Assembly (NCBI GenBank): GCA_965237985.1
Contig: OZ250161.1
Coordinates: forward strand, 1,615,012-1,679,011
Length of the DNA: 64,000 bases
From: Candidatus Oxydemutatoraceae bacterium
GTDB taxonomy: Bacteria > Pseudomonadota > Gammaproteobacteria > Poriferisulfidales > Oxydemutatoraceae
Direction: 5' to 3'
Position numbers and translations under genes: made by a program. Positions 29,601-64,000 of this stretch are shown piece after piece. Below the pieces are notes generated by a model, which made no database searches, was not told the origin of the DNA, and worked only from the letters and a program-made list of their open reading frames with translations. The first letter of the stretch is position 1. Every line of letters begins with the position of its first letter.

Positions 29601-29747
29601 GAACTGCACCTGGATTTGGTGGGAGCCTGCCTGGCAGCCGAACAGGCGGTGGCCCAAAGCAACTCGGCCAAAGATGAGATCCCTCATGAGATACTTGAGC
29701 GGATTGACCGTTGTGTGCGTAGCTTGCTCAAGGAATATGTTCAGTGA
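26640..29747 (+). CDS. Type IIL/IIG restriction-modification enzyme, MmeI family (endonuclease plus gamma-class N6-adenine methyltransferase plus target-recognition domain, one polypeptide)
   Basis: N-terminal 'FADLVFYSARLVIETKARGK' matches the MmeI nuclease motif (D-x10-E-x-K, compare MmeI 'FVDLFWPGILLIEMKSRGK'). MTase motif X 'FGEYYTPDWLA', motif I 'VLDPACGSGTFLFHAARRI', motif IV 'LIGNPPWIV'. Followed by about 450 aa of TRD. 1035 aa. Confidence 0.8.
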   Translation: MKKQEKIGIRSRLQKLSTLNGEDEIRSEVGELFELLGLPDKSLQHRVGRWFADLVFYSARLVIETKARGKVNPEDRGSGLDETQKGQLARYLEKLTAKEISPSDQPWRGVLTDGETWHVYEWNTKSHPGREKSGPRSSRVAEPRPSLYGWNDERMREIRPKFQFQAKHNGRAESFIEFFRQYLAPEKRRGKPAPPSDLGTSVLQPFFHDLAQLAENAEGDPHFNTKFRVWKSVLKGAGLLPPEGMVSRTRRLFREHTALVVTARGILNAMGKTTQRDAGLDRDLNSGFVSWLQEVTGGAERTRQLFQDLEKYEWRGTTRDVMRTAYEQLIKAEDRKEFGEYYTPDWLATAVCEDVLDVDWLNHALAAARQALTSRRARESRIEPLLGIGVLDPACGSGTFLFHAARRIVDHAVRERGFSPKEACHAAAILVHGMDIHPVAVEMSRAVLRTALPDLDDQDAEHLSVYVGDSLQTDEFQSGTLLGKDTVYVQSTKDHSIEIPRDLLSRPDFSVLIECLVGAALEKEPLNLCEFEMDKSLEKKLQIAYRALKKICRDEGNHVWAWKIRNTAKPLQLTGSGVDRLIGNPPWIVSNDTPEGVRKQAFKEMTKGYGLRDPKLHRSSAKGDLAALFAVRAIDLYLASGDGRKGGGGVAKRFAFVLPGSALINQVWRPFRTGNWQGKQHRVEATLETPWDLGGVKEAPFPHAPNQACVVRGYLGAAQQLPKAIFWKASDVELEQDWETARRLIRQSSGSEAFPEPKASLYVREFHLGVMLRPLCLGLTTDWESRGDLIRFTTYRSTKGPWKGKQYRGEMEAEATHSLLRSQTLRAFRALPDALLLAPLRDESIADLETWPKAWLPKARKWFREHEKVFQKYRSSKSAPSLLGNINWKNTFTRQYLRALKSPKALRKVVYNASGSSLRAARVVLGLAVNAKCYYAILTSEKAAAYLVATLNAPCLLPAWNHYKTSRLDYDLNPLRSVPVPVFDKTDELHLDLVGACLAAEQAVAQSNSAKDEIPHEILERIDRCVRSLLKEYVQ

Positions 29748-30099
29748 ATATCGTCGGTGACACAGTCTCCCCATGACATGTTTTCGTATTGTTTAGAGCG
29801 AGGAAAGCAATCTCCACAAGAACCAGAAATGGTTCCCCACCGTGCTTCGGAACAAGATCTTTTTTTATGACATGGTTTTCAAAAAGTATCCCTCAAATAA
29901 GATACATTTGAGGGTATCCGCAGGGGAGTGAGGCATTTTTTGTTTTTGGACATCCCTGCGGCTGCTTGAAGAGTTTTGCAGTTCCGGTATCGCTCAGGTC
30001 AAGTCTCAGGGCAATGCACTTCAATGTCGCCTCGCCCATCTCCCAGCTCGAAGCTCCTAAGCCGCCACGCTGAAAAATTTCTTGCGACCGCCAGTCATC

Positions 30100-30205
30100 G
30101 GTCTCGCCTGTTCAGGGGCCACGAAATTGGGTGGCTTGTTCCCCAATGTCTACGTGCCTGCCTGTTCAGGGGCCACGAAATTGGGTGGCTTGTTCCCCAA
30201 TGCTC
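30100..30205. repeat. Direct repeat, two copies, 54-bp period ('cctgttcaggggccacgaaattgggtggcttgttccccaatg')
   Basis: Exact 42-nt copies at 30107-30148 and 30161-30202, in the 850-bp spacer between the RM gene and the ImmA-like gene. Confidence 0.8.
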
Positions 30206-30605
30206 AAGATATTCAGACCCCAGTCATTTGTGGTACTTTCGGTTGCCCAACTCCGAAAACTGCGCGCTTCCGTCAACCCCCTCGGTTTCCTGGTGTGTTT
30301 TGACTAGACGGCTTGTTATTTGAAGCGAATGTTCCCGCAAACCAGTGCAGAACATGTACGTCTGGCTCAGGGTTTCTCAGTTTTGTTGCATCAGTATGCT
30401 ACAGTTCGTGCGTCCAATTTACCTTCCAGTTTGCCTATGCTTTTATATAGGTTTGTTAGTTTTCCCATCTCTAGTTTTGTGCTCTTTTATCCCTTCCGCG
30501 CCAGCGTCCACTTTCGTGTCAAGACTTCCCAGATAGAACACCCCCCCTCCCAGAACCACCAAAATTCCAAGTGCCTTTTATGTGTAATTCCCATTGTTTT
30601 AGAGC

Positions 30606-31844
30606 GTGACAATGCCTCGGATTCTTGAAAAAATTTCGCCGTGCACCATGAAATGGGCGAGAGTAGATGCAGGCTATCGGACTATCGAGAGAGCCGCCAA
30701 AAAATTATGCCAAGCTGCGGAAAGAATCAGAGGATGGGAAGAGGGGAAGAAGCTTCCTACGGCAGCTCAGCTCAGAGAAGTCGCCAAGACGTACCACCGG
30801 CCGATTTGCTTCTTTTATCTAAAAGAAGTTCCTGAACAGTTCAAGATTCAAAGGCCCGTGGACTTTCGACACCTGTCTTCGGATGTTCACGAACGCTGGA
30901 CTCCCAACCTGATGTTGATGATCAGACAGGCACATGACCGGCAGGACTGGGCGCGCGAACTGTTGGGTGATGAAGCGGGAAGCCAGAATTGGGTCGCCTC
31001 CGTCGACGAAGGAAGCGATCCTAAAGCACTCGCTAAAAAAATACGAAATTGGCTGGGGATCTCTGAACAGAAACAGCGAGGGTTTTCCAATCCGGGGGGT
31101 TTTCTCAATGAACTGGTCCGCCTTGCCGAAAACAGGGGAGTCTTTGTTTCTCGTCATCGGCCCGACCAGAACAGATACCGGTCTATTGAGCCCGAAATAT
31201 TCAGAGGAATCGCGCTCAAAGATGCTGTCGCTCCTTTGGTGGTGATTAATCCAAAAGATGCAATCAGAGGGCAAATTTTCACTCTGCTTCATGAGCTGGC
31301 GCATTTGTGGATGGATGCACCCGGGCTGTCAAATCGAGAACCAGATAAACGAGAAGATACTAGAAACAGAAGAATTGAAGTTGCCTGCAACCGCATTGCC
31401 GCGCAGGTCTTGATGCCAAAGAACTGGTTTCTGGCCGAGTGGAAAAAGTGTTCCGGCCTCTCGGATGATGCTATGAGAATAAAGGAGGTTGCTGGAGTTT
31501 TTTCAGTCAGCAGAGAAAGTGTTGCACGGCGGCGGCTTGACGAGGGTGAAATTACTTGGAATCAGTACATTGAATTTCGTAAAAGGTACCAGGAGGATTG
31601 GCGAGCAGAAAAAGCGAGAAAAAAAGAGCAGGCTTCTCAGAAGTCAAGATTTGGAGGTATGGCGAGCGGGTTGCGCATCTGTTTGGAAAACGGGAAAAAG
31701 CTGGCCCGTCTGGCTTTGGAGAACTATCAAGATCAGGAAATAAGCGCCATCGAGGTTTCTCGAGCACTGAACATGAAAGTCGCACATCTTGGGAAGCTTG
31801 CAAAAGCGGTTGACATTGATCTGCCTGACTGGCGGGATGTATGA
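30606..31844 (+). CDS. HTH_XRE-family regulator fused to an ImmA/IrrE (DUF955, COG2856) zinc metallopeptidase domain
   Basis: N-terminal HTH ('AAKKLCQAAERIRGWEEGKKLPTAAQLREVAKTYHRPICFFYL'). HExxH motif 'LLHELAHLWMD' about 220 aa in. 4-nt ATGA overlap with the next gene. Confidence 0.8.
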   Translation: MTMPRILEKISPCTMKWARVDAGYRTIERAAKKLCQAAERIRGWEEGKKLPTAAQLREVAKTYHRPICFFYLKEVPEQFKIQRPVDFRHLSSDVHERWTPNLMLMIRQAHDRQDWARELLGDEAGSQNWVASVDEGSDPKALAKKIRNWLGISEQKQRGFSNPGGFLNELVRLAENRGVFVSRHRPDQNRYRSIEPEIFRGIALKDAVAPLVVINPKDAIRGQIFTLLHELAHLWMDAPGLSNREPDKREDTRNRRIEVACNRIAAQVLMPKNWFLAEWKKCSGLSDDAMRIKEVAGVFSVSRESVARRRLDEGEITWNQYIEFRKRYQEDWRAEKARKKEQASQKSRFGGMASGLRICLENGKKLARLALENYQDQEISAIEVSRALNMKVAHLGKLAKAVDIDLPDWRDV

Positions 31845-51233: not shown

Positions 51234-51653
51234 ATGCAGACCATAGCAGTGCGCATAGTCAGCCAGAAGGGCGAGGTTTACAACGGTAAGGCAAACATAG
51301 TCAGCGCCGATGCCCACGACGGCGGAGTCGGGATATACCCTGGGCACGCCCCGTTCCTGACCTTGCTCCGACCAGGAGAAGTCAAAGTGCAGGTCGAAGG
51401 AAAAGAAGACCTGCGCTTTTTCGTGGCCGGTGGCATGCTCGAGGTTCAGCCCGACTTGGTGACAGTTCTGGCAGACACCATTGAGCGTAGCGAAGACCTG
51501 GACGAAGACCGCGCCGAAGCGGCAAAGAAACAGGCAGAAGCGCTGGCGCACAAAGGCGATCTAAGCCCTGAGGACAGAGCCAGAGCCATCGAACAACTCA
51601 CCGAAGCGGTTGCCCGCCTGCACATGATCGAAGAACTCCAGAAACGGCACTAA
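51234..51653 (+). CDS. atpC: ATP synthase F1 subunit epsilon
   Basis: N-terminal beta-sandwich ('VVSAD...GILPGHAP') plus C-terminal helical hairpin. 139 aa. Confidence 0.9.
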   Translation: MQTIAVRIVSQKGEVYNGKANIVSADAHDGGVGIYPGHAPFLTLLRPGEVKVQVEGKEDLRFFVAGGMLEVQPDLVTVLADTIERSEDLDEDRAEAAKKQAEALAHKGDLSPEDRARAIEQLTEAVARLHMIEELQKRH

Positions 51654-51659
51654 CACTAA

Positions 51660-52140
51660 CCCCACCCAAGACCCGCCATGCTCGAGGTTCAGCCCGACTT
51701 GGTGACGGTTCTGGCAGACACCGTTGAGCGTAGCGAAGACCTGGACAAAGACCGCGCCGAAGCGGCAAAGAAACAGGCAGAAGCGCTGGCGCACAAAGGC
51801 GATCTAAGCCCTGAGGCCAGAGCCAGAGCCATCGAACAACTCACCGAAGCCGTTGCCCGCCTGCACATAGATCGAAGAACTCCAGAAACGGCACTGACCC
51901 CACCCAAGACCCGCCATGCTCGAAGTTCAGCCCGACTTGGTGACGGTTCTGGCAGACACCGTTGAGCGTAGCGAAGACCTGGACAAAGATCGTGCCGAAG
52001 CGGCAAAGAAGCAGGCAGAAGCGCTGGCGCACAAAGGCGATCTAAGCCCTGAGGACAGAGCCAGAGCCATCGAACAACTCACCGAAGCCGTTGCCCGCCT
52101 GCACATAGATCGAAGAACTCCAGAAACGGCACTAACACTA
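51660..52140. repeat. Two additional ~238-bp tandem copies of the atpC 3' end, immediately downstream of atpC
   Basis: 'ccatgctcga.gttcagcccgacttggtgac.gttctggcagacacc' occurs at 51425 (in the gene), 51677 and 51915. The copies yield the pseudo-ORFs 51678..51965 and 51916..52266 ('MLEVQPDLVTVLADTVERSEDLD...'). Confidence 0.9.
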
Positions 52141-52604
52141 ACCCCACCCAAGACCTGTAAAGCACCAACAGCCCGCTGTCCGCACAACCCCTTCCCCGCG
52201 CGGCTCACTTTTACAGACAACACTCCCAACCTACAACGCGCCACCAGAAAATTCCCCAAAATCTAAAGCAAAGTGAGCGTATCCCCCGCCAAAGCCAGTC
52301 CGGGCCGTGGCAGGGGCTAATAAATCTGTCAGATGAGGAGGATGCCAGAGGCTGCCGATGCTGAGGAGGATGCCAGAGGCTGCCGATGCTAGAGACCGCT
52401 CCTGACAAAAATCGCCTTTCGGATTCTTTCAAATGTCACCTGATAGAGCTGCGGATTTTCCAGGTGCGTTGGTGTTGAGAAGCACGGACTGTGGTGTAGA
52501 GATGAGAGGTGATAAAAAAGGATTTCGTGTTGATAAATTGCAGATACAAAACACCTCAGCGGCATGTTTTTGGAAACCATTTTGGAATTCTTCCGATCAA
52601 CGTG

Positions 52605-52642: not shown

Positions 52643-52852
52643 TGGGTAATGTCCGAGGGATATCCGAGCGACCTGGAATACACTTCGATACCGGCAGCGG
52701 TACTTATCCGATGTGTCAGACGAACATGAACTTTCGATCTGTATCGTTGGTGTTTTCACGGTGGGTGCAAAATCCGCAGATTAGTGACTAACAACCAAAA
52801 TCCTCGTATACTCCGGAACACATCATCGGGGGTTGCATATTTTGGCAAGAAA

Positions 52853-54574
52853 ATGGCGGAAAAACTAACTCTCCAACAACTCGAGTCCTTTCTCTGGGAA
52901 ACCGCAGACATTCTCCGTGGCAACATGGATGCGTCTGAGTTCAAGGACTACATCTTCGGCATGATGTTCCTGAAACGTCTCTCGGACTCGTTTGAGGAAG
53001 AGCAAGAAAAAGTCATTCAGTACTACGTCTCGTCAGGAAAGTCACGGAAGCAAGCAGAGCAACTCGCATCTGACGAGGATGAGTACGACAAAACGTTCTT
53101 TGTTCCCGAACCTGCGCGATGGCACCAACTCAAGGATCTCAAGCACGACATTGGTGCAGAACTGAACAAGGCGACAGAGACGATCGAGGAACACAACTCA
53201 AGTCTCGAAGGGGTGTTGGTTTCCGTCGACTTCAACATCAAGAACAAACTCTCAGACAAGAAACTTCAGGATCTCCTGTCTCATTTTTCTCGTCATCGAC
53301 TGAGGAATGAGGATTTCGAGAACCCCGACCTGATGGGAGGGGCATACGAATACCTCATCAAGCAGTTTGCAGACTCGGCGGGAAAGAAGGGTGGAGAGTT
53401 CTATACCCCGAGTGAAGTGGTGAAACTTCTGGTATCCCTCCTCAAACCTCGTGCGGGTATGAAGATATATGATCCAACGGTTGGTTCCGGTGGAATGTTA
53501 GTGACCACCAGGCACTACCTCATCGATCACGGAGAGGATAAGTCCAACCTGTCCCTGTATGGTCAGGAGATGAACCTGAACACGTGGGCGATCTGCAAGA
53601 TGAACATGTTCCTACATGGCGTGTTCAACGCAGATATACGCAAAGGTGACACTCTGAGAGATCCTCAGCACATCTCAGGTGGTGAGTTGCAGGTATTTGA
53701 TCGGGTGATCGCAAATCCACCGTTCTCTCTGAAGAAATGGGGGAAAGATGAAGCAGATAACGATGCGTATGGACGGTTTCCCTACGGAACACCTCCCAAG
53801 GGTGCAGGAGATCTTGCATTCATTCAGCATATGATTGCATCTCTGAACGCAGAGGGAGTGATGGGGGTGGTGGTTCCTCACGGCGTTCTGTTCCGTGGAG
53901 CGAGTGAGAAGGAAATTCGCAAGGGTATTCTTGAGGATGATCTACTCGAGGGAGTGGTTGGACTACCCTCGGGACTGTTCTACGGCACAGGAATTCCTGC
54001 TGCACTCCTGATCATTAACAAAAACAAACCCTCAGATCGAAAAGGGAAGGTATTCTTCATTAACGGTGAACTGGAGTTTGAAGAAGGTAAAAACCAGAAC
54101 AAACTCCGTGAGGAGGATATTCAGAGAATTCTCGCGACCTTCGATGGTTACGAGGACGAGAAGCGATACGCGAAGATCGTTTCCATCGAGGAGATCCGTA
54201 AGAACGACTACAACCTGAACATTCGCAGGTATGCAGACACTTCACCCCCACCAGAACAATTTGATGTCCGTGCGATCCTTCACGGTGGAATTCCCATCAG
54301 TGAGGTGGGGGACGAATATGTTCAGGAAACCCTGCAGGGAATGGATGTCGGTAGTGTGTTCGTTCGCAGGGACAACGAATACTACGAGTTCAAACCTGAG
54401 ATTGAGTCCAAGGAACAGATACGTGAGTTCCTGAACACGGATGAGCAGTCAACCATCAACCAATTCGAGAGGTGGTGGGACAAGTATCGTGTCTCCCTGC
54501 ACGAACTGGATGCAGAGGTGAAACAGTCGGAAGAAGTGATGTGGGGTTATCTGAAGGAAATTGGATATGAGTGA
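52853..54574 (+). CDS. hsdM: Type I restriction-modification system, methyltransferase subunit
   Basis: HsdM_N ('[32 protein letters not shown]'), motif I '[12 protein letters not shown]', motif IV 'IANPPF'. I took the start at 'MAEKL', Met 24 of the ORF. Confidence 0.9.
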
Positions 54575-55967
54575 TATCAGAACGGAAAAATCTTTTGAAA
54601 AGAGAAAACTTAAAGATATTTCTTCCATCAAACCCGGCATAAATGTTCCCGCGGAGATGAAAGGAACGATGAACGAGTTGTTGACCAAAGGGATCGGTCA
54701 CACAGAGTTCAAGGACAGTGAGTTGGGGAGAGTTCCTGAGGGTTGGGAGGAAATTACTCTAGAAACTTTAGTTTCAGTCGATAGCGATTCCTTGAAAGGA
54801 AATACAGACGCCAATTATAGGTTCAAATATATTGATATTTCGTGTGTCTCGACTGGAAAAGTGATGCCACCCGCCGAGAAAATTTTGTTTAAGGACGCAC
54901 CAAGCAGGGCAAAACGAGTTGTAAAGCGCGGCGATGTTTTAGTTGCCACAGTTCGCCCAAATTTAAAGGCATTCGCCCACTTTGATGAAGAGGGTGATGG
55001 TTGGGTGGCATCAACTGGTTTCGCAGTCCTTCGGCATAAGGAAAACTCTGATAGTCGGTTTATTTACAATATTATGCTGTCGGATGATGTCAGCAGGCAA
55101 ATAGATAGACTTGTTGCAGGGTCAAATTACCCAGCAATAAGTTCGTCTGATGTTAAAGAGTTAACTTTATTGTCCCCACCCCTCTCAGAACAAAAGAAAA
55201 TCGCATCCATTCTCACCTCCGTTGATGAGGTGATTGAGGAAACCCAATCGCAAATCGACAAACTCCAAGATCTGAAAAGAGGAACGATGAACGAGTTGCT
55301 GACCAAAGGGATTGGTCACACAGAGTTCAAAGACAGTGAGTTGGGGAGAATTCCGAAGAGTTGGGAAATTACCTCAATTTCCGAAATCACGAGTGATAAT
55401 TCCCTATTCTCTGACGGTGATTGGGTTGAAAGCAAAGATCAAGACCCGGGGGGGGCAAATAGACTTATCCAACTCGCAGATATTGGTGACGGAAGTTTTA
55501 TCGACAAATCCGTAAGGTTTATGAACGATGAGCAGTTCCGCCGCTTGAATTGCACCGCTCTTATGAAGGACGACATATTGGTTGCAAGAATGCCTGAACC
55601 GCTCGGGCGTGCATGTCTTTTCCAGAATACAAAACAAGACTGTGCAACTGTTGTCGATGTGGCGATCATCCGAACGCCGAACACGAATCCATATTGGTTA
55701 ATGTCAGTTATTAACTCTGCAAATTTCAGACGGAAAATTGAAATTAATGCGCGCGGTACAACTAGGACACGGATTAGTCGTTCTGCATTGTCAGATATAA
55801 AAATAAATCTCCCCTCCCTCTCAGAACAAAAGAAAATCGCATCCATTCTCACCTCCGTTGATGAGGTGATTGAGAAAATCCAATCGCAAATCGACAAACT
55901 CAAATCCCTCAAAAAATCCCTCATGCAGGATCTCCTGACGGGTAAAGTCAGAGTGTCGGTGAACTGA
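54561..55967 (+). CDS. hsdS: Type I restriction-modification system, specificity subunit with two TRDs
   Basis: Duplicated conserved spacer '[23 protein letters not shown]' (twice), '[19 protein letters not shown]' (twice), and C-terminal '[16 protein letters not shown]'. Confidence 0.9.
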
Positions 55968-55968
55968 C

Positions 55969-58950
55969 ATGTCCTCCGATGAATTCGACAAGGTAGAACT
56001 CCCTGCACTGGAACAACTCCAGTCACTGGGATGGTCATACCTTGAGGGTTCCCAACTTTCTCCCGATGAGTCGGATGCACGCACCTCCTACAAGGACGTG
56101 GTTCTCGAAAACCGTCTTGAGAAAGCGATCCAACGTATCAATCCGTGGATCAGCGATGACAACCTGCGCAGGGTGATCAGTGAATTCACCAGAGCGCAGT
56201 TTCCGAACCTGATCGAGGCGAACCAGTCTGTCTGGAACACCCTCACGCAATACACCTCGGTCATGCAGGATGTGGGTAAGGGTAACCGAGGACAGACGGT
56301 CAAGGTCATCGACTTCGACACCCCTGAGAACAACGAGTTCCTCTGCACCAACCAATTCAAAGTCTCAGGGGTGAACCAGACAATCATTCCTGACATCATC
56401 CTGTTCGTGAATGGACTTCCTCTCGCAGTGATGGAGTGCAAATCCCCCTACATCACCAATCCCATGGAATCTGGGATTGGTCAGTTGATGCGGTACGCAA
56501 ACCGCAGAAACCTGCAAGACGATGAAGGTGCAGAGAAACTCTTTCACTACAACCAACTGATGGTTTCGACCCATCTGGACAAGGCGAGAGTGGGAACTAT
56601 CACTGCAAGAATGGAACACTTTCTGGAGTGGAAGGATCCCTATCCCCTGTCGGTTGCAGACATCGGGGCAAACCCCCAATCACAGGATATTCTGATCTCG
56701 GGAATGTTCAGCAAGACGAACTTCCTTGATCTCATTCAGAATTTCACGGTGTTTGAACCTGCCGATGGACGCACCGTGAAGAAGATCGCACGATATCAGC
56801 AATTCCGTGCAGTCCACAAATCCATTGAACGCATCCAATCGGGAACCGATCGCAAGAGCAAAAGCGGAGTTATTTGGCACACGCAGGGATCTGGCAAGTC
56901 CCTGACGATGGTTTACTTGGTACTCAAAATCCGACGAGACGAAGCACTGAGGGGCTACAAACTCGTTTTCATTACCGATCGTACGCAACTGGACAACCAA
57001 CTCACCGCAACCTTTCAGAATACGCAGAACGAAACGGTGCACCGTGCGGACTCCATCCGTGATCTGAAGGGTCTTCTACAGAAGGATTCATCCGATATCG
57101 TGATGGCAATGGTGCAGAAGTTTCAGGTGAGTGCGAAAGAACTGGAGTTTCCTGTTTTGAATAAGTCCAAGAAGATCATTGTTCTCGCAGACGAGGCACA
57201 CAGAACCCAATATGGAACTCTGGGTGCAGCACTCAACGTGGGACTCCCGCAGGCACCCAAGATTGCGTTCACTGGAACCCCTCTCATCAAATCTGAAAAA
57301 ACCACCAACGAATTTGGTTCCTATATCGACACCTACACCATCGAGCAGTCGGTTGAGGACGGAGCGACTATCCCAATTCTCTATGAGGGACGCGAAGCAA
57401 GGGTGAACGTCACAGGAGACTCTCTCGATGGTCTGTTCGATGAGTATTTTGCAGATAAGACGGAGGAAGAAAAATCTGCAATTAGACGCAAATACGGCAC
57501 CACGAAAGCAGTTCTCGAGGCACCCCAGCGTATTCGCAGGGTTTGCATCGATATTCTCAAGCACTACCGCGAATTCATTCAGCCCAATGGGTTCAAGGCG
57601 ATGATTGTCACCTCATCGCGGAGTGCGGCAATCACCTACAAGGAAATGATGGATGAACTGGAGGCACCAGGGTCCGCAGTCATCATCTCAGGTAATCACA
57701 ATGACGAGGAACGATTTCGGCAATACACGGACGGCACCAAACAGAAGAACCAGATATTGGATTTCAAGAAACCTCTGGGTTCCGATGAGGGACAGTCCAA
57801 TCTCTCGTTCCTGATCGTCAGGGACATGTTGTTGACGGGTTTCGACGCACCCATCGCGCAGGTGATGTATCTCGACAATAAACTTACCGATCACAACCTT
57901 TTGCAGGCGATTGCGCGTGTCAATCGAACCAATAGAAACAAGTTTCGTGGGTATATCGTCGACTATTATGGATTGAGCGATTACCTGACGGAAGCATTGG
58001 AGATGTTCTCGACGGAGGATGTGGAAGGTGCGTTGCGAGATCTCAAAGACGAGATACCAAGACTGCAGAACGCACACACGCGAGTGATGCAGTGCTTCAT
58101 GGGCATGGATCTGGACGATCTCGATGAATGCATTTTCTCTCTCGAGGATGAAGTCCGACGACAGCAGTTTCAGTTAGATTTTCGAAAATTCTCCCAGCAG
58201 ATGGACGTGGTTTTACCTGCTCCAGCAGCAAGCCCGTTTGTGTCGGATTTGAGAAGACTGGGGAAAATATCTCATGGAGCACGGAACCGCTTCAGAGATG
58301 AGCAACTCTTTATCGCAGGAGCAGGCGAGAAGGTTCGCAAACTGATAGAGGATCACATCTATTCGACAGGGGTGGATCCTAAAATCGACCCCGTTTATCT
58401 CCTGGCAGCGGATTTCAAAGAAAAATTGAACCAGCACAAATCCAGCAGGGCGAAAGCATCCGAGATCGAGAATGCGATCAAGCATCACATAAAGATCAAA
58501 CTCGAGGATGATCCCGAATTCTACAAATCTCTCTCCGAGAAATTAGAGTCCATCATTCGGAAGCACGAAGAGAAGTGGGGTGAGTTGGTTCAATCACTCA
58601 TGGATTTTCGTGGCACCATCGAGGAAGGACCAGAAGCAAGGGCAAAAGAACTCGGCCTGACGGAAACGGAGTTCGCGTTTCACAACATCCTGAAGGCAGA
58701 AGTCACCAAGGCCGAAGGTGTGGAGACAATCGACGAGGGCATGCATCAGAAGGTGAAGGATGTCTCCCGGAAACTCGTCGCAATGATGGACGAAGCAACG
58801 AAGATCGTTGATTTCTTCGAGAAATGGGACGAGCGAAGGAGAGTGCGTCGGGATATCAAACGCGCAATCATCGCAGAGTTTGATGATGTCAGTTTGGTGA
58901 AACCGATCACTGACAGGTTCATGGAACTGGCAGAGCGAAAGTTCCGATGA
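55969..58950 (+). CDS. hsdR: Type I restriction-modification system, restriction subunit (helicase/endonuclease)
   Basis: 993 aa. N-terminal HsdR_N, SF2 helicase motifs ('HTQGSGKSLTM' Walker A, 'VLADEAHRTQ' DEAH box). Confidence 0.9.
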   Translation: MSSDEFDKVELPALEQLQSLGWSYLEGSQLSPDESDARTSYKDVVLENRLEKAIQRINPWISDDNLRRVISEFTRAQFPNLIEANQSVWNTLTQYTSVMQDVGKGNRGQTVKVIDFDTPENNEFLCTNQFKVSGVNQTIIPDIILFVNGLPLAVMECKSPYITNPMESGIGQLMRYANRRNLQDDEGAEKLFHYNQLMVSTHLDKARVGTITARMEHFLEWKDPYPLSVADIGANPQSQDILISGMFSKTNFLDLIQNFTVFEPADGRTVKKIARYQQFRAVHKSIERIQSGTDRKSKSGVIWHTQGSGKSLTMVYLVLKIRRDEALRGYKLVFITDRTQLDNQLTATFQNTQNETVHRADSIRDLKGLLQKDSSDIVMAMVQKFQVSAKELEFPVLNKSKKIIVLADEAHRTQYGTLGAALNVGLPQAPKIAFTGTPLIKSEKTTNEFGSYIDTYTIEQSVEDGATIPILYEGREARVNVTGDSLDGLFDEYFADKTEEEKSAIRRKYGTTKAVLEAPQRIRRVCIDILKHYREFIQPNGFKAMIVTSSRSAAITYKEMMDELEAPGSAVIISGNHNDEERFRQYTDGTKQKNQILDFKKPLGSDEGQSNLSFLIVRDMLLTGFDAPIAQVMYLDNKLTDHNLLQAIARVNRTNRNKFRGYIVDYYGLSDYLTEALEMFSTEDVEGALRDLKDEIPRLQNAHTRVMQCFMGMDLDDLDECIFSLEDEVRRQQFQLDFRKFSQQMDVVLPAPAASPFVSDLRRLGKISHGARNRFRDEQLFIAGAGEKVRKLIEDHIYSTGVDPKIDPVYLLAADFKEKLNQHKSSRAKASEIENAIKHHIKIKLEDDPEFYKSLSEKLESIIRKHEEKWGELVQSLMDFRGTIEEGPEARAKELGLTETEFAFHNILKAEVTKAEGVETIDEGMHQKVKDVSRKLVAMMDEATKIVDFFEKWDERRRVRRDIKRAIIAEFDDVSLVKPITDRFMELAERKFR

Positions 58951-59642
58951 ACCCAGAATTCGATAAGGATTTATCGATCGAGGTGGTTCGCACGAATAGG
59001 AAGAAGACTGCGTCCATCAAGATAGTCGATGGATCCGTTCAGGTGATCGTTCCCCGAAAACTCTCGAATGCGAGGGTTGCGGAACTCATTGAGAAACGAA
59101 CTCCGTGGATACGGCAGAAACTCCGTCAGCAGTCGGAAACGGTGGTCCTAAAACCCAAGGAATACGTGAGTGGAGAGAGTTTCACCCATCTGGGGCGGAA
59201 CTATCGTCTCAAACTTGTATCCGGTGGTTTGCGTGAGGTCAGACTCAAAGGTGGATACCTCGAACTTGGCGTCTCCAAGGGAACCAAGGATGGGGATATC
59301 CGAAATGCGTTGGTTCGTTGGTATGAGGAACACGCAATTGAGCGACTGACTGAGAAAACTGTGCGATATGCAAAGATTATGGATGTCGCACCTAACTCGA
59401 TCGTTGCGAGAGACTACAAATCACGATGGGGATCATGTTCCCCGCAGGGTGATATTTCCTACAACTGGAGGATCATCATCGCACCGCATCACATCGTGGA
59501 CTACGTGGTGGTTCATGAACTCTGTCATATGCAGCATCCAAACCACTCACCCGCATACTGGAATTCTGTAAAGCGAGTGATGCTCGACTACAAAGAGTCA
59601 CGGCAGTGGTTGAAGGATCATAGTGCGAGTTTGATTATTTGA
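58947..59642 (+). CDS. DUF45/YgjP-like M48-family metal-dependent hydrolase, commonly linked to type I RM operons
   Basis: C-terminal 'VVVHELCHMQHPNHSPAYW' HExxH motif. 231 aa. ATGA overlap with hsdR. Confidence 0.8.
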   Translation: MNPEFDKDLSIEVVRTNRKKTASIKIVDGSVQVIVPRKLSNARVAELIEKRTPWIRQKLRQQSETVVLKPKEYVSGESFTHLGRNYRLKLVSGGLREVRLKGGYLELGVSKGTKDGDIRNALVRWYEEHAIERLTEKTVRYAKIMDVAPNSIVARDYKSRWGSCSPQGDISYNWRIIIAPHHIVDYVVVHELCHMQHPNHSPAYWNSVKRVMLDYKESRQWLKDHSASLII

Positions 59643-59643
59643 T

Positions 59644-60006
59644 TTACTTCTGATTCTTCAGAATGATGTCCCGCACGTTTTTTGAGTAACCCTGAACATA
59701 GTTGTCGAAGTTCATAAAGACGTTGGTGGGGTCACTCTTAATCCGGGATAGGTCGAACTTTGATGTATTGAAGAAGGAAAGACCAACCTGTCTCAGGATC
59801 ACTGGAGAAGGATCAGAGAGTTGATCTTTGAATTTGTCGTAAAGTTCATACACCTCATCCTTCTGGGGTGCCAGGACACAATCCAGACGCCTCATGACCA
59901 CGAACGGAAGAATGACTCGACCGTATTCACTGGGTTTGAAGAGACCACGAAGGACGTCATCTGCTGACGACCAGATCAAGGATGACAGGCTGCTTGTACT
60001 GTTCAA
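59644..60006 (-). pseudogene. Truncated N-terminal fragment (120 aa) of a second HsdM/PglX-type N6-adenine methyltransferase, an HsdM_N domain only
   Basis: 'IWSSADDVLRGLFKPSEYGRVILPFVVMRRLDCVL...YNTSKFDL...FMNFDNYVQGYSKNVRDI' matches the HsdM N-terminal domain. The frame ends 2 nt from the end of the DUF45 gene, with no catalytic domain. Confidence 0.6.
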
Positions 60007-60093
60007 AAGATTGATTTCCCGACAAAAAGATTGAAAAGAACCGGATATTCCTGAATTATCAACGACGGCTAGGGGGTGTCCATGAAACGAAAA

Positions 60094-62490
60094 TCATTCC
60101 ACAGTGACGGATTTCGCCAGGTTACGGGGTTTGTCGACGTCGGTGCCTTTCAGCATGGCAGGGTAGGCGTTCACGAGTTCTTGTAGGCAAGCGCGAGTGG
60201 ACTGAACGGTCCCTTCTATGTTGTGTTCGGAAAACTCCTCTGTATTACCTAAGGCAAATTTCGGCAGGTCGTCAAACAGAAATCTGTATGGATCAGATGC
60301 GGATGAAACAATCCCACGAAGTTTTTGTGCGTCCCGACTTATGGTGGTGGTTCTCTGGGTCCAGACTGGCAGGCTGGTAACGACAGAAACCAAAATTCTG
60401 GCGACTTCAAGAGGAGTACCTTTCTCGTTGGCTTCAGCACCATAATATTCAGCCATAAAGTCTTGTATGCCCGCCAAAACCAGGGACCGAACTCTGTCAA
60501 GATTCATCCGGCGTATTTGGACCGCTTCAGGTTCTTGATGCATCCGATCAACAAACCATTCATCCAAGTATGGTCGGAATGTTCCATCCAGGTAGAGTGC
60601 CAATCGCTCCGTGCGAGACAACAGGTATGCAAGAGCCAGTACTGGTAACAATCCGGCACGAACACCATATGGTGCATCCGACCAAACGTCGAAAATATTG
60701 GCCAAAGATATTGGTTCAATTTTCGCGTCCTTTAGTAGCCTGTCGGCTGCTAGCCATAAATTTTTAAGGTTACACGGATCTTTGTCAGCTGGTTCTTGGA
60801 ATGCAAATCGGTTTCTTTCTTTATCGGTTGTTCGATACAAATTTGTCGCTTCCAGCACGCTTGTGAATAAGCCGGCCTCGGCAGGGAACCCGGTGAATCC
60901 TAATCGTTCTCTACCGTGTTCTTTGACCATTGCGCGCATCAGCAGACGGCGAGCCGCCACAGCAGTGCTTGACGGTTTGGCGCGGTTCAGCAACTCATTA
61001 CATATTCGTGGGGCGTATGGGTAGGTTTTTTCAGCAAGATCAGAAACGTAACGATGGATTGCCGCCAAGCCATTCAGTTTGATTTTGTGCCCTTCGCTGT
61101 ACCAAGAGGACACGGACAGGAAGGCATCATTCAGTGCGAATTCCAGTTTATGTCTGGTGGCATCAAGGCGTGTTTCGACTTCAAGTCGTGCTATGGCATC
61201 GCCACTCAATTCCGGACGCTTGCTACGAATTTGCTCCAGCACGGCAAGCTCTTGCATTAAATCAAGGAGCATGTTGCCGTTCGGAGCAAGCCCCGCCGTC
61301 ATATTCTTGTTTTTGTACTTTGAAACTTTGCAGAGTAACGCTATCGCTTCACGCTCCGACACATCCTTGGATGGAAGTGCGACGACGAAGATGCCGAATG
61401 ATCCCGTGTTTGGCTGGAACGTCTTCGCACGTGTATCAACTTTGTCTATCGTGAGGACATCGACATCAACCCAGCGCATTGCGCCTGTTTTATGGTAATG
61501 GCGTTTCGCCATGATTGGCCGTAGTGCTGCCAGTTTCTGAATAGTCGCAGAATCCAGGGCTATGGTTTGGTTGAGCTCTCTATCAATAGCCGCATCAATT
61601 TCAAAGTCGCTACCGGCATGTATAGCGAAGGCTGACAAGTGCCGCCGGTAGACAACGATGGACCACCGCATCAAATCCTTGAGCACCTTGTTGCGTGTGG
61701 TTCGTGCAATGGTAGGGGTGGCGATGTCCAATACTTCCCGTGAGGCATAAAACCCCGTGCGTTCTCGAAACAAGTCGATGAGGGCAATGGTTTTGGCTAT
61801 CACCAAATGGTCAGTCCTGCCACCGCGAGACTCGCAACGTTCGAAGGCTTCAAGTGCGGTTGACCAACGATGGCAGTCAGGGGATGCCAAAATAGATGGC
61901 TCGAAATTATCGTGCAAATAATCCCACAGCATTGCTGGTAAATAGGTATTTTCTTTAGTAGCTTGTCTTAGGAAATGCTGAAACGCATGAGGTTCCGAGG
62001 AATTCAAGAAACTAAAAATGCTACGCTGGTTCTGCCCAAATCGGCGACGAAAACATGGGCCAAGCAAGCAGGCAGTGACCGGATTAAGGGGCCAGCATCC
62101 TGCTAAATATACGCTCAGGTTCTTGTCGGTCGTGCCCTTGTTGTTATTGATGAGATTCGCGAGAGCACACGCTGCCGCCGGCGCTGTTTTCGGAGGCTTC
62201 TGTGTTTCAATGGAGCGGGCTAACAGGGCTAACTGCTCATTGGCGGTACTCGCCAGTGGCATATCTAGAAATCGGCCTTGCACCTTCATCCACTTGTCCT
62301 GGGTTTGGCGCGCCATGCGATTGGTATATTCGGCAAAGGCTTGGTGCAGGATCCCGACGACAATCAAGCGCCGATCACTACGTGAGGCAATTTCTGCGAG
62401 TTCCTGCAGAAAGTGAAGATCACCATTACCTTGTCCTGTTTCCTCAAGAATCTTGCCCATTTCATCAATAAAGATAATGGGTCCTGACAA
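60094..62490 (-). CDS. Large P-loop NTPase-like protein whose N-terminus is replaced by an IS1595 insertion; possible BrxC/PglY-like or other defence ATPase
   Basis: About 800 aa continuing in frame from the IS transposase remnant. Walker B-like 'IIFIDEMGK' immediately after the junction, then a long helical region. No Walker A remains. The family assignment is speculative. Confidence 0.45.
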   Translation of the reverse strand: MSGPIIFIDEMGKILEETGQGNGDLHFLQELAEIASRSDRRLIVVGILHQAFAEYTNRMARQTQDKWMKVQGRFLDMPLASTANEQLALLARSIETQKPPKTAPAAACALANLINNNKGTTDKNLSVYLAGCWPLNPVTACLLGPCFRRRFGQNQRSIFSFLNSSEPHAFQHFLRQATKENTYLPAMLWDYLHDNFEPSILASPDCHRWSTALEAFERCESRGGRTDHLVIAKTIALIDLFRERTGFYASREVLDIATPTIARTTRNKVLKDLMRWSIVVYRRHLSAFAIHAGSDFEIDAAIDRELNQTIALDSATIQKLAALRPIMAKRHYHKTGAMRWVDVDVLTIDKVDTRAKTFQPNTGSFGIFVVALPSKDVSEREAIALLCKVSKYKNKNMTAGLAPNGNMLLDLMQELAVLEQIRSKRPELSGDAIARLEVETRLDATRHKLEFALNDAFLSVSSWYSEGHKIKLNGLAAIHRYVSDLAEKTYPYAPRICNELLNRAKPSSTAVAARRLLMRAMVKEHGRERLGFTGFPAEAGLFTSVLEATNLYRTTDKERNRFAFQEPADKDPCNLKNLWLAADRLLKDAKIEPISLANIFDVWSDAPYGVRAGLLPVLALAYLLSRTERLALYLDGTFRPYLDEWFVDRMHQEPEAVQIRRMNLDRVRSLVLAGIQDFMAEYYGAEANEKGTPLEVARILVSVVTSLPVWTQRTTTISRDAQKLRGIVSSASDPYRFLFDDLPKFALGNTEEFSEHNIEGTVQSTRACLQELVNAYPAMLKGTDVDKPRNLAKSVTVE

Positions 62491-63260
62491 GTTAAGCGGC
62501 TCTTTTCTGAATATTCCAAGCAAAATCTTGTAAAGATTTTGCTTGCGATTGTTGAATCTAAATTCACATTCTTTAAGATGTAAATTGAATGTACTTTTGT
62601 CCATCCCTTTAAACTTTACCAACCTAGTTTTTGCATAACCCCAAAATGACTCTATGCCATTAATATGAGAATTTCCTCTGGCGAATTCATTCTCACCATG
62701 ATGAACTCTAAAGTGCTTCTTATAACCAAAATCTACTAAACCATTATACCCACGCCAGCCATCAGAATGAATAACACTATCTATACTTGTTTTACCTCTA
62801 ATTATCTTGGTTAAAGTCGCTGCAGTGCAATCTGGAACAATCTCAGTATAAACTTTATCACCGCGTTTTAATAAACCAAATACTTTGGTTTTACCTTTGG
62901 CGCCAAGACCACGCACACCTTTGACTCTTTTTGCCCCAAAGTAAGATTCATCAACTTCAATCTGTCCCACTAATAGGGCAGATTGGTTGGTTGAATCTCT
63001 GGCAATCTGCTTGCAAATTGCCTTTAAATATTGATTAATAGTTTGTCTACTTAACTTTGTTAATTATTGGATTTGAACGGTGTTCAAATCCAAAGAAAAA
63101 TAGCGAATAATTTCTCTAAATTTATGCTCAGAAATTCTTGAACGAATTACATATTTATTTTTCATTGTCATAACAATACTTTATCATGTTTTTAAACATG
63201 CTTAACTTGTCATAACCCTTATTTAATATCGCCCTCGAAATTAACCATCATGAGAGAGAT
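62480..63260 (-). mobile_element. IS1595-family (ISXO2-like) insertion sequence with a frameshifted transposase
   Basis: Minus-strand 'MTMKNKYVIRSRISEHKFREIIRYFSLDLNTVQIQ*' (63171 to about 63065), then after a frameshift 'LTKLSRQTINQYLK...GQIEVDESYFGAKRVKG...NGIESFWGYAKTRL...ECEFRFNNRKQNLYKILLGIFRKEPL'. The boundaries are approximate and the IRs were not identified. Confidence 0.7.
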
Positions 63261-63431
63261 GAACTGCTGAACGAACTAATCCATGACTATATTATGAACA
63301 CACTCACCAGTGACTCTAGCAATCTGTATCCGTGTGCTGATGCTATTGATAGAGTGAGTGACGTGTTTGATTCATAAAGCATTAGCACCACACATTATTT
63401 ACTACCGTGTCCGAGTGTTATAAATTCAATA

Positions 63432-63998
63432 TTATTTTGTAACTGTAACTATGATGGTTCTTCCAGTTAAACATTCAATAGAATTCATTTTATCTACATA
63501 TTGCTCATTATGCTTATCAATTGTTTTGAACTTCCTTTTTTCTTTCTTTGTAGTAAATACTGAAGTTAATTTAATAACTGGATATAAAAAAATTAACCAA
63601 ATCAATGAGGTTTTTTGCATTTTATCAATAGTTAATTCTATTTGAGAAAAACCAGCATCTAATAATGAATGAACCAAATAAAAATATGAAATAGGATTTA
63701 TATGACTCCCAGTTGAATGTATCTCACTTTCATTAACATGCAATGGTCCAAATAAATTATAAAACCCATACGTTAAAAACCTTACCCTTGATTTTAAATT
63801 TAAAATATTTGGAGTAGACATCACTAATACTCCACCTGACTTTATGACCCTATTAATCTCTTTAAGAATACCCCGATGATTTTCTAAATGCTCTATAACT
63901 TCTGTAAAAATAACTGCATCAAAAAAATTATCCTCATAAGGTAACTTACAATGATTCAAATCTACAACATCCACCTTCTGATTAGGCAAACCCATTAA
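63432..63998 (-). CDS. Class I SAM-dependent methyltransferase (Methyltransf_11-like), 5' end beyond the window; AT-rich
   Basis: 'DAVIFTEVIEHLENHRGILKEINRVIKSGGVLVMSTPN' is MTase post-motif II/III. GC content is markedly lower than in the core genome. Confidence 0.6.
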   Translation of the reverse strand, partial: LMGLPNQKVDVVDLNHCKLPYEDNFFDAVIFTEVIEHLENHRGILKEINRVIKSGGVLVMSTPNILNLKSRVRFLTYGFYNLFGPLHVNESEIHSTGSHINPISYFYLVHSLLDAGFSQIELTIDKMQKTSLIWLIFLYPVIKLTSVFTTKKEKRKFKTIDKHNEQYVDKMNSIECLTGRTIIVTVTK

Positions 63999-64000
63999 AG

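What the first reader, a model, noticed from the sequence alone, without database searches (positions are those of the whole stretch)
59644..63260. Possible BREX-like remnant: an NTPase (BrxC/PglY-like?) followed by an HsdM_N/PglX-like N-terminal fragment, both inactivated by insertions
On the minus strand the order is: IS1595 (frameshifted tnp), an in-frame fusion to an ~800-aa protein beginning at a Walker B 'IIFIDEMGK', a 90-nt gap, then an HsdM_N-type MTase N-terminus. That N-terminus is cut off exactly where the type I RM cassette begins. A large ATPase immediately upstream of an adenine-MTase matches the brxC-to-pglX order of BREX. It could equally be an unrelated ATPase and MTase pair.
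Basis: inference. Interest (0 to 1): 0.55.

Follow-up and report, generated by a model that had tools for sequence, protein, structure and literature searches.

The report
Dead SspC fragment, not BREX
The supposed BREX remnant is three dead gene fragments welded together (a phosphorothioation ATPase SspC, the last 17 codons of glmS, and the start of a type I methylase), next to an intact type I restriction system; this is ordinary decay in a defence island.

Summary
The sequence features are real, but the BREX reading fails. The ~800-aa ATPase is SspC, the P-loop ATPase of the SspABCD DNA-phosphorothioation system. PADLOC scores SspC at 921 bits and BrxC at 294.

The window holds only residues 168-944 of an 1129-aa protein. 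An IS1595-family element abuts the 5' end, so Walker A is lost.

After an 87-nt spacer come codons 1-115 of a type I hsdM, not pglX. Its intact relatives are 570-aa HsdM genes followed by hsdS and hsdR. This fragment is joined 19 bp from the stop codon of a convergent, intact hsdMSR-ygjP cassette. No pglZ, pglX or brx gene lies nearby.

An IS-free metagenomic haplotype carries sspA, sspB and sspC(1-944) with the same downstream junctions. A full-length SspC and an SspD sit on a contig of the same length (2,000,500 bp) as the window's genome. The locus is therefore best read as a non-functional, rearranged partial duplicate of an Ssp/type I defence island, later trimmed next to an IS. Interest is low.

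The parts
62479..63218 (-). IS1595-family insertion sequence, 740 bp. IRL is 63200-63218 and IRR is 62479-62497. The transposase starts at 63171, is inactivated by an in-frame TAA at 63066-63064, and has no stop codon inside the element.
   Evidence: Inverted repeats. Pfam and NCBIfam IS1595 matches. Translation. A 65%-identical full-length relative on a Trichlorobacter lovleyi plasmid has an 8-bp TSD and a stop codon inside its IRR. The window copy has no TSD: left flank TTAAATAA, right flank ATTATCTT.
60148..62478 (-). sspC fragment, codons 168-944 of an 1129-aa SspC. Walker B is retained. Walker A and the N-terminal 167 aa are lost, as are the C-terminal 185 aa.
   Evidence: PADLOC SspC PDLC02780 at 1.9e-277, 921 bits, profile positions 142-933 of 1045. 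66% identity to residues 167-944 of P0003. 776 of 777 residues identical to the full-length P0243.
60094..60147 (-). glmS 3' end: the last 17 codons (GTDVDKPRNLAKSVTVE) plus the stop codon, fused in frame to sspC codon 944.
   Evidence: NCBIfam glmS models match their final 28-31 positions (E 3e-7 and 6.6e-7). Full-length SspC continues ...AYPAMLKTLDALL, whereas the window reads ...AYPAMLKGTDVDKPRN. There is no other glmS sequence in the window.
60007..60093 (-). 87-nt spacer of unknown origin between the glmS stop codon and the hsdM' start codon. It is presumably the native glmS-hsdM intergenic region and holds one promoter-like match.
   Evidence: Sequence. No homology to the regions upstream of hsdM in 25 other genomes. 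Promoter-like site at 60082-60055, no more than chance would give. No Rfam or tRNA hit.
59662..60006 (-). hsdM' fragment: codons 1-115 (HsdM_N domain only) of a type I methyltransferase of 'system A'. The catalytic N6_Mtase domain is absent.
   Evidence: Pfam HsdM_N and PADLOC MTase_I positions 4-118 of 661. Up to 85% aa identity to the N-termini of ~570-aa HsdM genes. DNA homology ends at 59662 in essentially all of them.
59643..59661 (.). 19-bp junction filler between the end of hsdM' homology and the ygjP stop codon. It supplies 5 non-homologous codons and the TAA of the 120-codon ORF.
52784..59642 (+). Intact convergent type I RM 'system B': hsdM 52784-54574, hsdS 54561-55967, hsdR 55969-58950 and a ygjP-like metallopeptidase gene 58947-59642. 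It is a neighbour, not part of the remnant.
   Evidence: PADLOC MTase_I 712 bits, Specificity_I 250 bits, REase_I 500 bits. Pfam YgjP-like 2.6e-61.
63219..64000 (-). Foreign 30%-GC DNA on the left flank of the IS. It carries a class I SAM methyltransferase gene (Methyltransf_11) that is not a DNA MTase; its ORF ends at 63432 and runs off the window. It replaces the expected sspC 5' end and sspB/sspA.
   Evidence: Composition. Pfam. Haplotype L038 lacks 63219-63585.

Best explanation
The locus is non-functional debris from a defence island. It is not a BREX system and not a working gene.

Reading the minus strand, it consists of:
1. a dead IS1595-family element;
2. an internal piece of sspC, the BrxC-family P-loop ATPase that works with SspA (cysteine desulfurase), SspB (DUF4007) and SspD (PAPS-reductase-like) to put phosphorothioate into DNA. 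The piece lacks Walker A and the C-terminal 185 residues;
3. a 0.49-kb patch made of the last 17 codons of glmS, an 87-nt spacer and codons 1-115 of a type I hsdM;
4. the 3' end of an intact, convergent hsdM-hsdS-hsdR-ygjP cassette.

Inferred history:
- A defence island of the form glmS / type I RM 'A' (hsdM-hsdS-hsdR) / ... / sspA-sspB-sspC-sspD was partly duplicated.
- The duplicate is circularly permuted. Sequence from sspC codon 944 runs straight into the glmS 3' end and the start of hsdM_A. A tandem-duplication junction, a reinserted circle or a template switch would each produce this.
- The copy was then joined at hsdM_A codon 115 to the end of RM 'B'.
- Later, in some strains only, an IS1595-associated rearrangement removed everything upstream of sspC codon 168. 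This was an adjacent deletion or a recombination event, because there is no target duplication.
- The genome appears to keep a full-length sspC and an sspD elsewhere, so phosphorothioation does not depend on this copy.

The piece identities, the junction positions and the order of events are shown. The mechanism of each junction and the location of the intact copy are inferred.
For: Identity of the ATPase:
- Ten of the eleven best PADLOC models are SspC; the top one scores 921 bits against 294 for the best BrxC model.
- 66%-identical full-length proteins (1126 aa) sit in loci containing SspA, SspB, SspC, SspD, PbeA and PbeC.

Truncation:
- The fragment aligns to residues 167-944 of P0003 (equivalent to 168-944 of P0243). 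Walker A (GPFGGGKSS, residues 61-69) lies upstream of the break.

glmS tail.

hsdM':
-.
- Its relatives are followed by hsdS and by an hsdR that is 60-76% identical to the HsdR lying upstream of sspA/sspB/sspC' in the IS-free haplotype L004. That arrangement is a circular permutation.

Order of events:
- The junctions sspC/glmS' and hsdM'/ygjP are shared by all four haplotypes: the window, L004, L005 and L038, at 99.4-99.7% identity.
- The IS junction occurs only in the window and L038.
- L004 has the uninterrupted sspC 5' end plus intact sspB and sspA.

IS-associated rearrangement:
- There is no TSD, although a relative has an 8-bp TSD.
- Six bases (CAGGAC) are shared between the IS end and native sspC at the junction, and the next two bases differ between strains.
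- L038 has a further 367-bp deletion at the other IS end.

Intact copy:
- P0243 (1129-aa SspC) and P0282 (SspD) are each on a 2,000,500-bp contig.
- The window's own ORF (P0242), YgjP and AtpC are on a contig of the same length.

No pglZ or brx gene:
- All window ORFs of 398 aa or more were assigned to other families.
- Precomputed Pfam hits on the flanks in L004 and L038 show none.
Against: - The intact glmS-hsdM_A junction that the duplication model predicts was not seen. None of 25 related hsdM loci has glmS upstream, and two exact-match metagenome scans found nothing.
- P0243 and P0282 are placed in the window's genome only because the contig lengths are equal. Their loci could not be fetched.
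- In the IS-bearing haplotype, genes resembling the tail of an Ssp-Pbe island (a Sigma70_r4 gene at 54% identity and a GmrSD_C remnant) lie upstream of the IS. A simple tandem duplication does not predict this order, so more than two events are needed.
- The sspC reading frame is still open in all haplotypes. Divergence is too low (9-21 substitutions in 2.8 kb) to tell relaxed selection from a recent origin.
Confidence: 0.85

Rival explanations
1. BREX remnant: a brxC/pglY ATPase followed by a pglX methyltransferase, both disrupted.
For: The ATPase matches the PADLOC BrxC-PglY model at 4.9e-88, and relatives carry Pfam BrxC-PglY_N. An adenine-MTase N-terminus lies downstream on the same strand.
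Against: - SspC models score three times higher (921 against 294 bits).
- The neighbours in the uninterrupted haplotype and in orthologous loci are SspA, SspB, SspD and Pbe genes, never PglZ, PglX or BrxL.
- The MTase fragment matches only type I MTase models. Its relatives are hsdM genes within hsdMSR operons.
- A glmS fragment separates the two pieces.
Confidence: 0.02
2. Remnant of a type 4 BREX system (brxP-brxC-pglZ-brxL). These are phosphorothioation-based, and their BrxC is the SspC homologue.
For: BrxC of type 4 BREX and SspC share the same domain, and BrxP equals an SspD-SspB fusion (PMC12914056; PMC12839542). SspD of the related locus gives a weak BrxP hit at 1.2e-8.
Against: - SspB (DUF4007) and SspD (PAPS reductase) are separate genes here and in relatives.
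- A dedicated SspA is present.
- No PglZ or BrxL is found in any of the loci.
- The downstream partners are Pbe-type genes.
Confidence: 0.03
3. The chimeric ORF is a functional gene. Either the transposase-SspC-GlmS fusion in the window is expressed and active, or SspC(1-944)+GlmS tail in the IS-free strain works as a second or regulatory SspC that uses SspD in trans.
For: The frame stays open over 2.3 kb in four haplotypes. In L004, sspA and sspB upstream are intact, and Walker A and B are present.
Against: - The window copy lacks Walker A and the whole N-terminal 167 residues.
- The only start codon left is inside a transposase that itself carries a premature stop.
- The C-terminal 185 residues conserved in all ~1126-aa homologues are missing.
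- Divergence between haplotypes is too low for the open frame to indicate selection.
Confidence: 0.05
4. Assembly artefact: the junctions are chimeric joins in a metagenome-assembled genome.
For: The locus contains repeated sequence (a second sspC copy, a glmS 3' end). One related contig (L005) ends 22 bp from the sspC/glmS junction.
Against: The same sspC/glmS' and hsdM'/ygjP junctions occur on three separate contigs with distinct SNP patterns. The IS junction occurs on a separate contig as well as in the window.
Confidence: 0.03

Closest known systems
SspC of the SspABCD phosphorothioation module (SspABCD-SspE of Vibrio cyclitrophicus FF75; SspABCD-SspFGH; PMC8092258, PMC12914056)
   Same: It is the best profile match. 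Intact 66%-identical relatives have the sspA / sspB-sspC-sspD gene order. It has a P-loop ATPase Walker B, and relatives carry the DUF6079 / BrxC-PglY_N domain.
   Different: Only residues 168-944 of 1129 are present. There is no Walker A and no adjacent sspD. The fragment is fused to transposase sequence at its 5' end and to a glmS tail at its 3' end. Relatives are coupled to Pbe-type genes rather than SspE or SspFGH.
BrxC/PglY of BREX (types 1-6, especially PT-based type 4)
   Same: It is a homologous ATPase family (PADLOC BrxC at 294 bits), and it sits in a defence island.
   Different: No PglZ, PglX, BrxA, BrxB, BrxL or BrxP is present. The SspC score is higher and the neighbours are Ssp genes.
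Type I restriction-modification HsdM
   Same: It has an HsdM_N domain with up to 85% identity to the N-termini of 570-aa HsdM proteins encoded in hsdM-hsdS-hsdR operons.
   Different: Only 115 codons remain. The N6_Mtase catalytic domain is absent and there is no cognate hsdS or hsdR downstream.
IS1595-family insertion sequences (compact ~0.74-kb members such as the annotated copy on Trichlorobacter lovleyi plasmid pIAE1)
   Same: It is a 740-bp element with GGGT(C/T)ATGAC... terminal repeats and a single DDE transposase at 64% aa identity.
   Different: It has a nonsense codon at position 36, no stop codon inside the element and no 8-bp target-site duplication. One flank is replaced.

Membership tests
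SspC (SspABCD DNA phosphorothioation) | Best sequence-profile match is SspC rather than another BrxC-family ATPase | tested here: met
   PADLOC SspC PDLC02780 at 921 bits. Ten SspC models outrank the best BrxC model at 294 bits.
SspC (SspABCD DNA phosphorothioation) | Complete P-loop ATPase with Walker A and Walker B | tested here: not met
   Walker B (IIFIDEMGK) is present. Walker A (residues 61-69 of full-length homologues) lies upstream of the IS junction and is absent from the window.
SspC (SspABCD DNA phosphorothioation) | Operon context: sspB upstream, sspD downstream, sspA adjacent | tested here: inconclusive
   Not met in the window, which has the IS upstream and the glmS tail downstream. 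sspA and sspB are present upstream in the IS-free haplotype L004. sspD is absent from both. The full sspA/B/C/D set is present in 66%-identical loci.
SspC (SspABCD DNA phosphorothioation) | Required for phosphorothioate modification of DNA | not testable with these tools
   This needs LC-MS/MS of PT dinucleotides or a genetic test.
BREX | PglZ alkaline-phosphatase-family gene in the cluster | tested here: not met
   No PglZ among the window ORFs of 398 aa or more or in the precomputed Pfam hits for L004, L037 and L038.
BREX | PglX-type methyltransferase next to BrxC | tested here: not met
   The fragment matches only PADLOC MTase_I (128 bits) with no PglX hit. Full-length relatives are 570-aa HsdM genes followed by hsdS and hsdR.
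BREX | BrxC/PglY ATPase | tested here: inconclusive
   Homology is present (BrxC-PglY at 4.9e-88) but subordinate to SspC.
BREX type 4 | Fused BrxP (PAPS reductase + DUF4007) with PglZ and BrxL | tested here: not met
   SspB and SspD are separate genes in relatives, and no PglZ or BrxL is present.
Type I RM HsdM | HsdM_N domain followed by the N6_Mtase catalytic domain | tested here: not met
   Only HsdM_N is present (profile positions 1-108 of 135). Homology ends at codon 115.
IS1595 family | DDE_Tnp_IS1595 transposase between terminal inverted repeats | tested here: met
IS1595 family | 8-bp target-site duplication from simple insertion, and an intact transposase | tested here: not met
   The flanks are TTAAATAA and ATTATCTT. 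There is an in-frame TAA at codon 36.

The most novel reading that the evidence does not exclude
The locus may record how whole defence modules get copied. The glmS'-hsdM' patch would mark a circular or tandem-duplication intermediate that carried 'type I RM A + Ssp' to a site beside the atp operon. In the IS-free strains, the resulting SspA-SspB-SspC(1-944) set would be a working second phosphorothioation module, or a dominant modulator of the first one, using SspD in trans. The IS event in this window would then be a recent knock-out of that module.
Probability: 0.07. Interest if true: 0.4.

Novelty: already known. Interest (0 to 1): 0.15.

Why it matters
It matters mainly as a correction. 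An annotation pipeline or a reader could call this a BREX or 'BrxC' locus, but it is a dead fragment of an Ssp phosphorothioation ATPase.

It also shows, at base-pair resolution and across four co-occurring haplotypes, how defence islands decay and reshuffle. The steps seen are partial duplication, illegitimate junctions that capture a housekeeping gene's 3' end, and loss of sequence next to an IS.

No new biology is implied.

Tried and rejected
- Searching for the intact glmS-hsdM junction. Twenty-five hsdM relatives in reference genomes were inspected and none has glmS upstream. Two exact-match scans of JGI metagenomes, one with the spacer and one with the glmS tail, gave 0 hits.
- Fetching the loci of the full-length SspC (P0243), the SspD (P0282) and the window's own ORF from the 2.0-Mb contig. 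None is in the gene-position index.
- A Tn7 or attTn7 explanation for the glmS tail. It was rejected because no TGT-type transposon end or tns gene follows the tail, and only 87 nt separate the glmS stop codon from hsdM'.
- The idea that 120-aa HsdM_N proteins are a recurrent stand-alone family. The other short hits are independent pseudogenes, either frameshifted or interrupted by IS21, or are contig-end fragments.
- Other copies of the IS, or of the glmS'-hsdM' block, in the window: none found.
- Rfam and tRNA scans of 50-64 kb: nothing.
- PDB sequence search with full-length SspC: no solved relative.
- Terminator and promoter scan: no more than chance would give.
Full report
**Anatomy**

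On the minus strand the region 63218 to 59643 reads as follows.

(i) A 740-bp IS1595-family element lies at 62479-63218.
- It has 19-nt terminal inverted repeats.
- Its transposase matches Pfam DDE_Tnp_IS1595 and NCBIfam transpos_IS1595.

(ii) Directly after the last base of the right repeat, a reading frame starts with IIFIDEMGK at 62478 and ends at 60094.

(iii) An 87-nt spacer follows (60093-60007).

(iv) A 120-codon ORF runs from 60006 to 59644 and carries an HsdM_N domain.

(v) One base later comes the stop codon of a ygjP-like gene. This gene closes a + strand type I RM cassette: hsdM 52784-54574, hsdS 54561-55967, hsdR 55969-58950 and ygjP 58947-59642. All of these give strong PADLOC or Pfam matches.

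**Corrections to the observation**

- The transposase is not frameshifted. It is colinear (64% identity) with the 226-aa transposase of a 65%-identical element on a Trichlorobacter lovleyi plasmid, apart from a single TAA at 63066-63064 where the relative has Glu36.
- That relative ends its ORF inside the right repeat and is flanked by an 8-bp duplication, TTAAATTA.
- The window copy has no stop codon inside the element, which is why the frame runs on into the neighbouring sequence.
- The window copy also has no duplication. Its flanks are TTAAATAA and ATTATCTT.

**What the ATPase is**

- Against PADLOC, the ORF hits SspC with 921 bits (profile positions 142-933 of 1045). Nine further SspC models follow before the best BrxC-PglY model at 294 bits.
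- The large protein collection gives full-length relatives of about 1126 aa at 64-67% identity that carry Pfam PF19557, BrxC-PglY_N.
- Their loci encode a divergent cysteine desulfurase, then DUF4007, the ATPase and a PAPS-reductase-like protein. PADLOC names these SspA, SspB, SspC and SspD, followed by PbeA and PbeC.
- The family is therefore SspC, the P-loop ATPase of the SspABCD single-strand DNA phosphorothioation machinery.
[quoted passage not shown] It is described as the homologue of BrxC, sharing DUF6079, with type 4 BREX being the PT-based BREX (PMC12914056; PMC12839542).

**How much of SspC is left**

- The window fragment aligns to residues 167-944 of P0003.
- It is identical at 776 of 777 positions to residues 168-944 of a full-length 1129-aa protein, P0243.
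- Walker A (GPFGGGKSS, residues 61-69) lies upstream of the IS junction and is missing.
- At the other end, full-length SspC continues ...AYPAMLKTLDALL, whereas the window reads ...AYPAMLKGTDVDKPRNLAKSVTVE*.
- NCBIfam recognises that tail as the last 28-31 positions of GlmS (E 3e-7).
- So 185 C-terminal residues of SspC are replaced by the last 17 codons and the stop codon of glmS (60147-60094).
- No other glmS sequence is in the window.

**What the methylase fragment is**

- It hits only PADLOC type I MTase (128 bits, positions 4-118 of 661) and no PglX model.
- In one-genome-per-species contigs, 26 loci encode relatives, with up to 85% aa identity over residues 1-115. They come from very diverse phyla, including Arenicellales, SAR116, Polynucleobacter, Nitrospira, Prochlorococcus and Pelagibacter.
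- In these loci the gene is a ~570-aa hsdM followed by hsdS and hsdR.
- DNA homology to all of them stops at window 59662, which is codon 115.
- The last five codons and the stop codon come from 19 bp of junction sequence.
- Other short HsdM_N hits on long contigs turned out to be unrelated pseudogenes, either frameshifted or interrupted by IS21. There is no recurrent 'mini-HsdM' family.

**Related haplotypes give the order of events**

Three contigs from one ENA metagenome (ERZ25766962) are 99.4-99.7% identical to this part of the window.

- L004 has no IS.
  - There, sspC is uninterrupted at its 5' end...CATGCAGGACTAATTATCTTTATTGATGAA.
  - It is preceded by intact sspB and sspA.
  - Further upstream lie an AAA_15 gene, a Metallophos gene and an hsdS-hsdR pair.
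  - Even so, L004 has exactly the same sspC/glmS', spacer, hsdM' and ygjP junctions.
- L005 shares those junctions too.
- L038 carries the IS at the same sspC position.

The two downstream junctions are therefore older. The IS-associated loss of sspC codons 1-167, sspB and sspA came later.

**Circular permutation**

- The HsdR upstream of the ssp genes in L004 is 60-76% identical to the HsdR that follows the full-length relatives of hsdM'.
- So hsdM' (codons 1-115) and that hsdS-hsdR pair belong to the same type I 'system A'.
- The start of the system, however, lies downstream of its end, with sspA, sspB and sspC(1-944)|glmS' in between.
- This is the signature of a duplication junction: the end of a duplicated segment in sspC joined to its beginning in glmS. 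Equivalent signatures are a reinserted circle or a templated patch.
- A second break then joined hsdM_A codon 115 to the end of system B.
- This is an inference. I could not find the predicted intact glmS-hsdM_A junction.

**An intact copy probably survives**

- The 90% cluster of this protein holds the window's exact ORF (P0242) and the full-length P0243. Both are on an NCBI/ENA contig of 2,000,500 bp.
- The window's exact YgjP and AtpC are on a contig of that same length.
- An SspD (P0282, 78% identical to the SspD of L002) is on a contig of the same length as well.
- Beyond the window end, L038 shows the low-GC methyltransferase, an rve_3 fragment, a GmrSD_C remnant, and a Sigma70_r4 gene 54% identical to the gene at the tail of the L002 Ssp-Pbe island.
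- This suggests the tail of another Ssp-type island lies just upstream. It also means the full history needs more than two events.

**The IS junction**

- The right end reads ...GCTTAACTTGTCAGGACCC|ATTATC in the window and ...GCTTAACTTGTCAGGACTA|ATTATC in L038. Native sspC reads ...CATGCAGGACTA|ATTATC.
- Six bases (CAGGAC) are common to the IS end and to sspC.
- The next two bases are IS-like in one strain and sspC-like in the other.
- L038 also lacks 367 bp (window 63219-63585) at the other IS end.
- Together with the missing target duplication, this indicates that DNA next to the IS was lost by recombination or adjacent deletion, not by a clean insertion.
- The left flank is 30% GC, against 59% in the core genes. 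It encodes a small-molecule-type class I methyltransferase.

**BREX test**

- Every window ORF of 398 aa or more was assigned to another family. They comprise:
  - aspartokinase, TraB, ArgS, SecD, RmuC, QueG, Nnr and an amidase;
  - a type IIG RM enzyme, an M78 protein, Memo/AMMECR1 and MurJ;
  - AtpA and AtpD;
  - HsdM, HsdS and HsdR.
- No PglZ, PglX, BrxA, BrxB, BrxL or BrxP appears in the window or in the flanks of L004 and L038.
- The ATPase and the MTase fragment are separated by a glmS fragment and come from different operons.
- The BREX reading, including type 4, is not supported.

**Function**

- The window copy cannot be an active SspC. It has no Walker A, no C-terminal 185 residues and no adjacent sspD.
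- Its only upstream start codon is inside a transposase gene that carries a premature stop codon.
- The hsdM' fragment lacks the catalytic domain.
- The adjacent system B is complete and is the only plausibly active element here.
- The open frame in all haplotypes is uninformative, because they differ by only 9-21 substitutions in 2.8 kb.
- No RNA family, tRNA or above-chance promoter or terminator signal was found.

**Verdict**

This is an ordinary, well-explained remnant of known systems (Ssp, type I RM, IS1595) in a defence island downstream of the atp operon. Novelty: already known. Interest: low. Its value is as a corrected annotation and as a small worked example of how defence islands decay.

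Noticed in passing
window 51434-52155 (also L037 114-1330, L039 2355-3321): Directly after intact atpC (51234-51653), the 3' half of atpC is repeated in tandem. The unit is 238-244 bp and the copies match at 94-97%. The window has 3.0 copies, one co-occurring haplotype has 4.0 and another has at least 5.0. Each extra copy begins with an ATG and gives a 95-116-aa ORF for the epsilon-subunit C-terminal helices. The array marks the boundary between core genes and the defence island. Its origin is unexplained; possibilities include att-site stuttering or a selected epsilon C-terminal-domain array.
   Followed up: partly
window 54660-55894 (hsdS of the intact type I system): The part of hsdS that codes for the target-recognition domains has no match in three haplotypes that are otherwise 98-99.7% identical. 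Only the short conserved repeats at 55175-55366 and 55801-55901 match. In those haplotypes hsdS is called in two pieces. This points to a specificity swap or hsdS decay between co-occurring strains.
   Followed up: partly
L005/L039 (ERZ25766962 ctg14751), relative to window 51108: One haplotype loses homology to the window inside the 3' end of atpD. Upstream of atpC it has 315-aa and 119-aa ORFs with no Pfam match instead of atpD. Either the atpC-to-hsdM' block sits in a different context there, or that contig is chimeric.
   Followed up: no
window 26640-31844: A 1035-aa type IIG restriction-methyltransferase (PADLOC REase_MTase_IIG, 160 bits; only a 41-bit PglX-like hit over the catalytic motif) lies near an M78/IrrE-type peptidase gene (30606-31844). 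Together they form a separate small defence islet between an amidase gene and the Memo/tgt/queA genes.
   Followed up: partly
window 63219-64000 and L038 8003-14326: A 30%-GC foreign segment carries a class I SAM methyltransferase (Methyltransf_11). Beyond the window end come an rve_3 transposase fragment, a GmrSD_C remnant, a 414-aa ORF with no family, and a Sigma70_r4 protein 54% identical to a gene at the tail of intact Ssp-Pbe islands. L038 lacks window 63219-63585, so the IS abuts a different position there.
   Followed up: partly
L010-L034 (hsdM relatives): The hsdM type represented by the fragment is 72-85% identical at the protein N-terminus across very distant phyla, including Pelagibacter, Prochlorococcus, Nitrospira, Patescibacteria, Thermodesulfobacteriota and Arenicellales. 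This implies wide horizontal spread of this type I system in aquatic bacteria.
   Followed up: no
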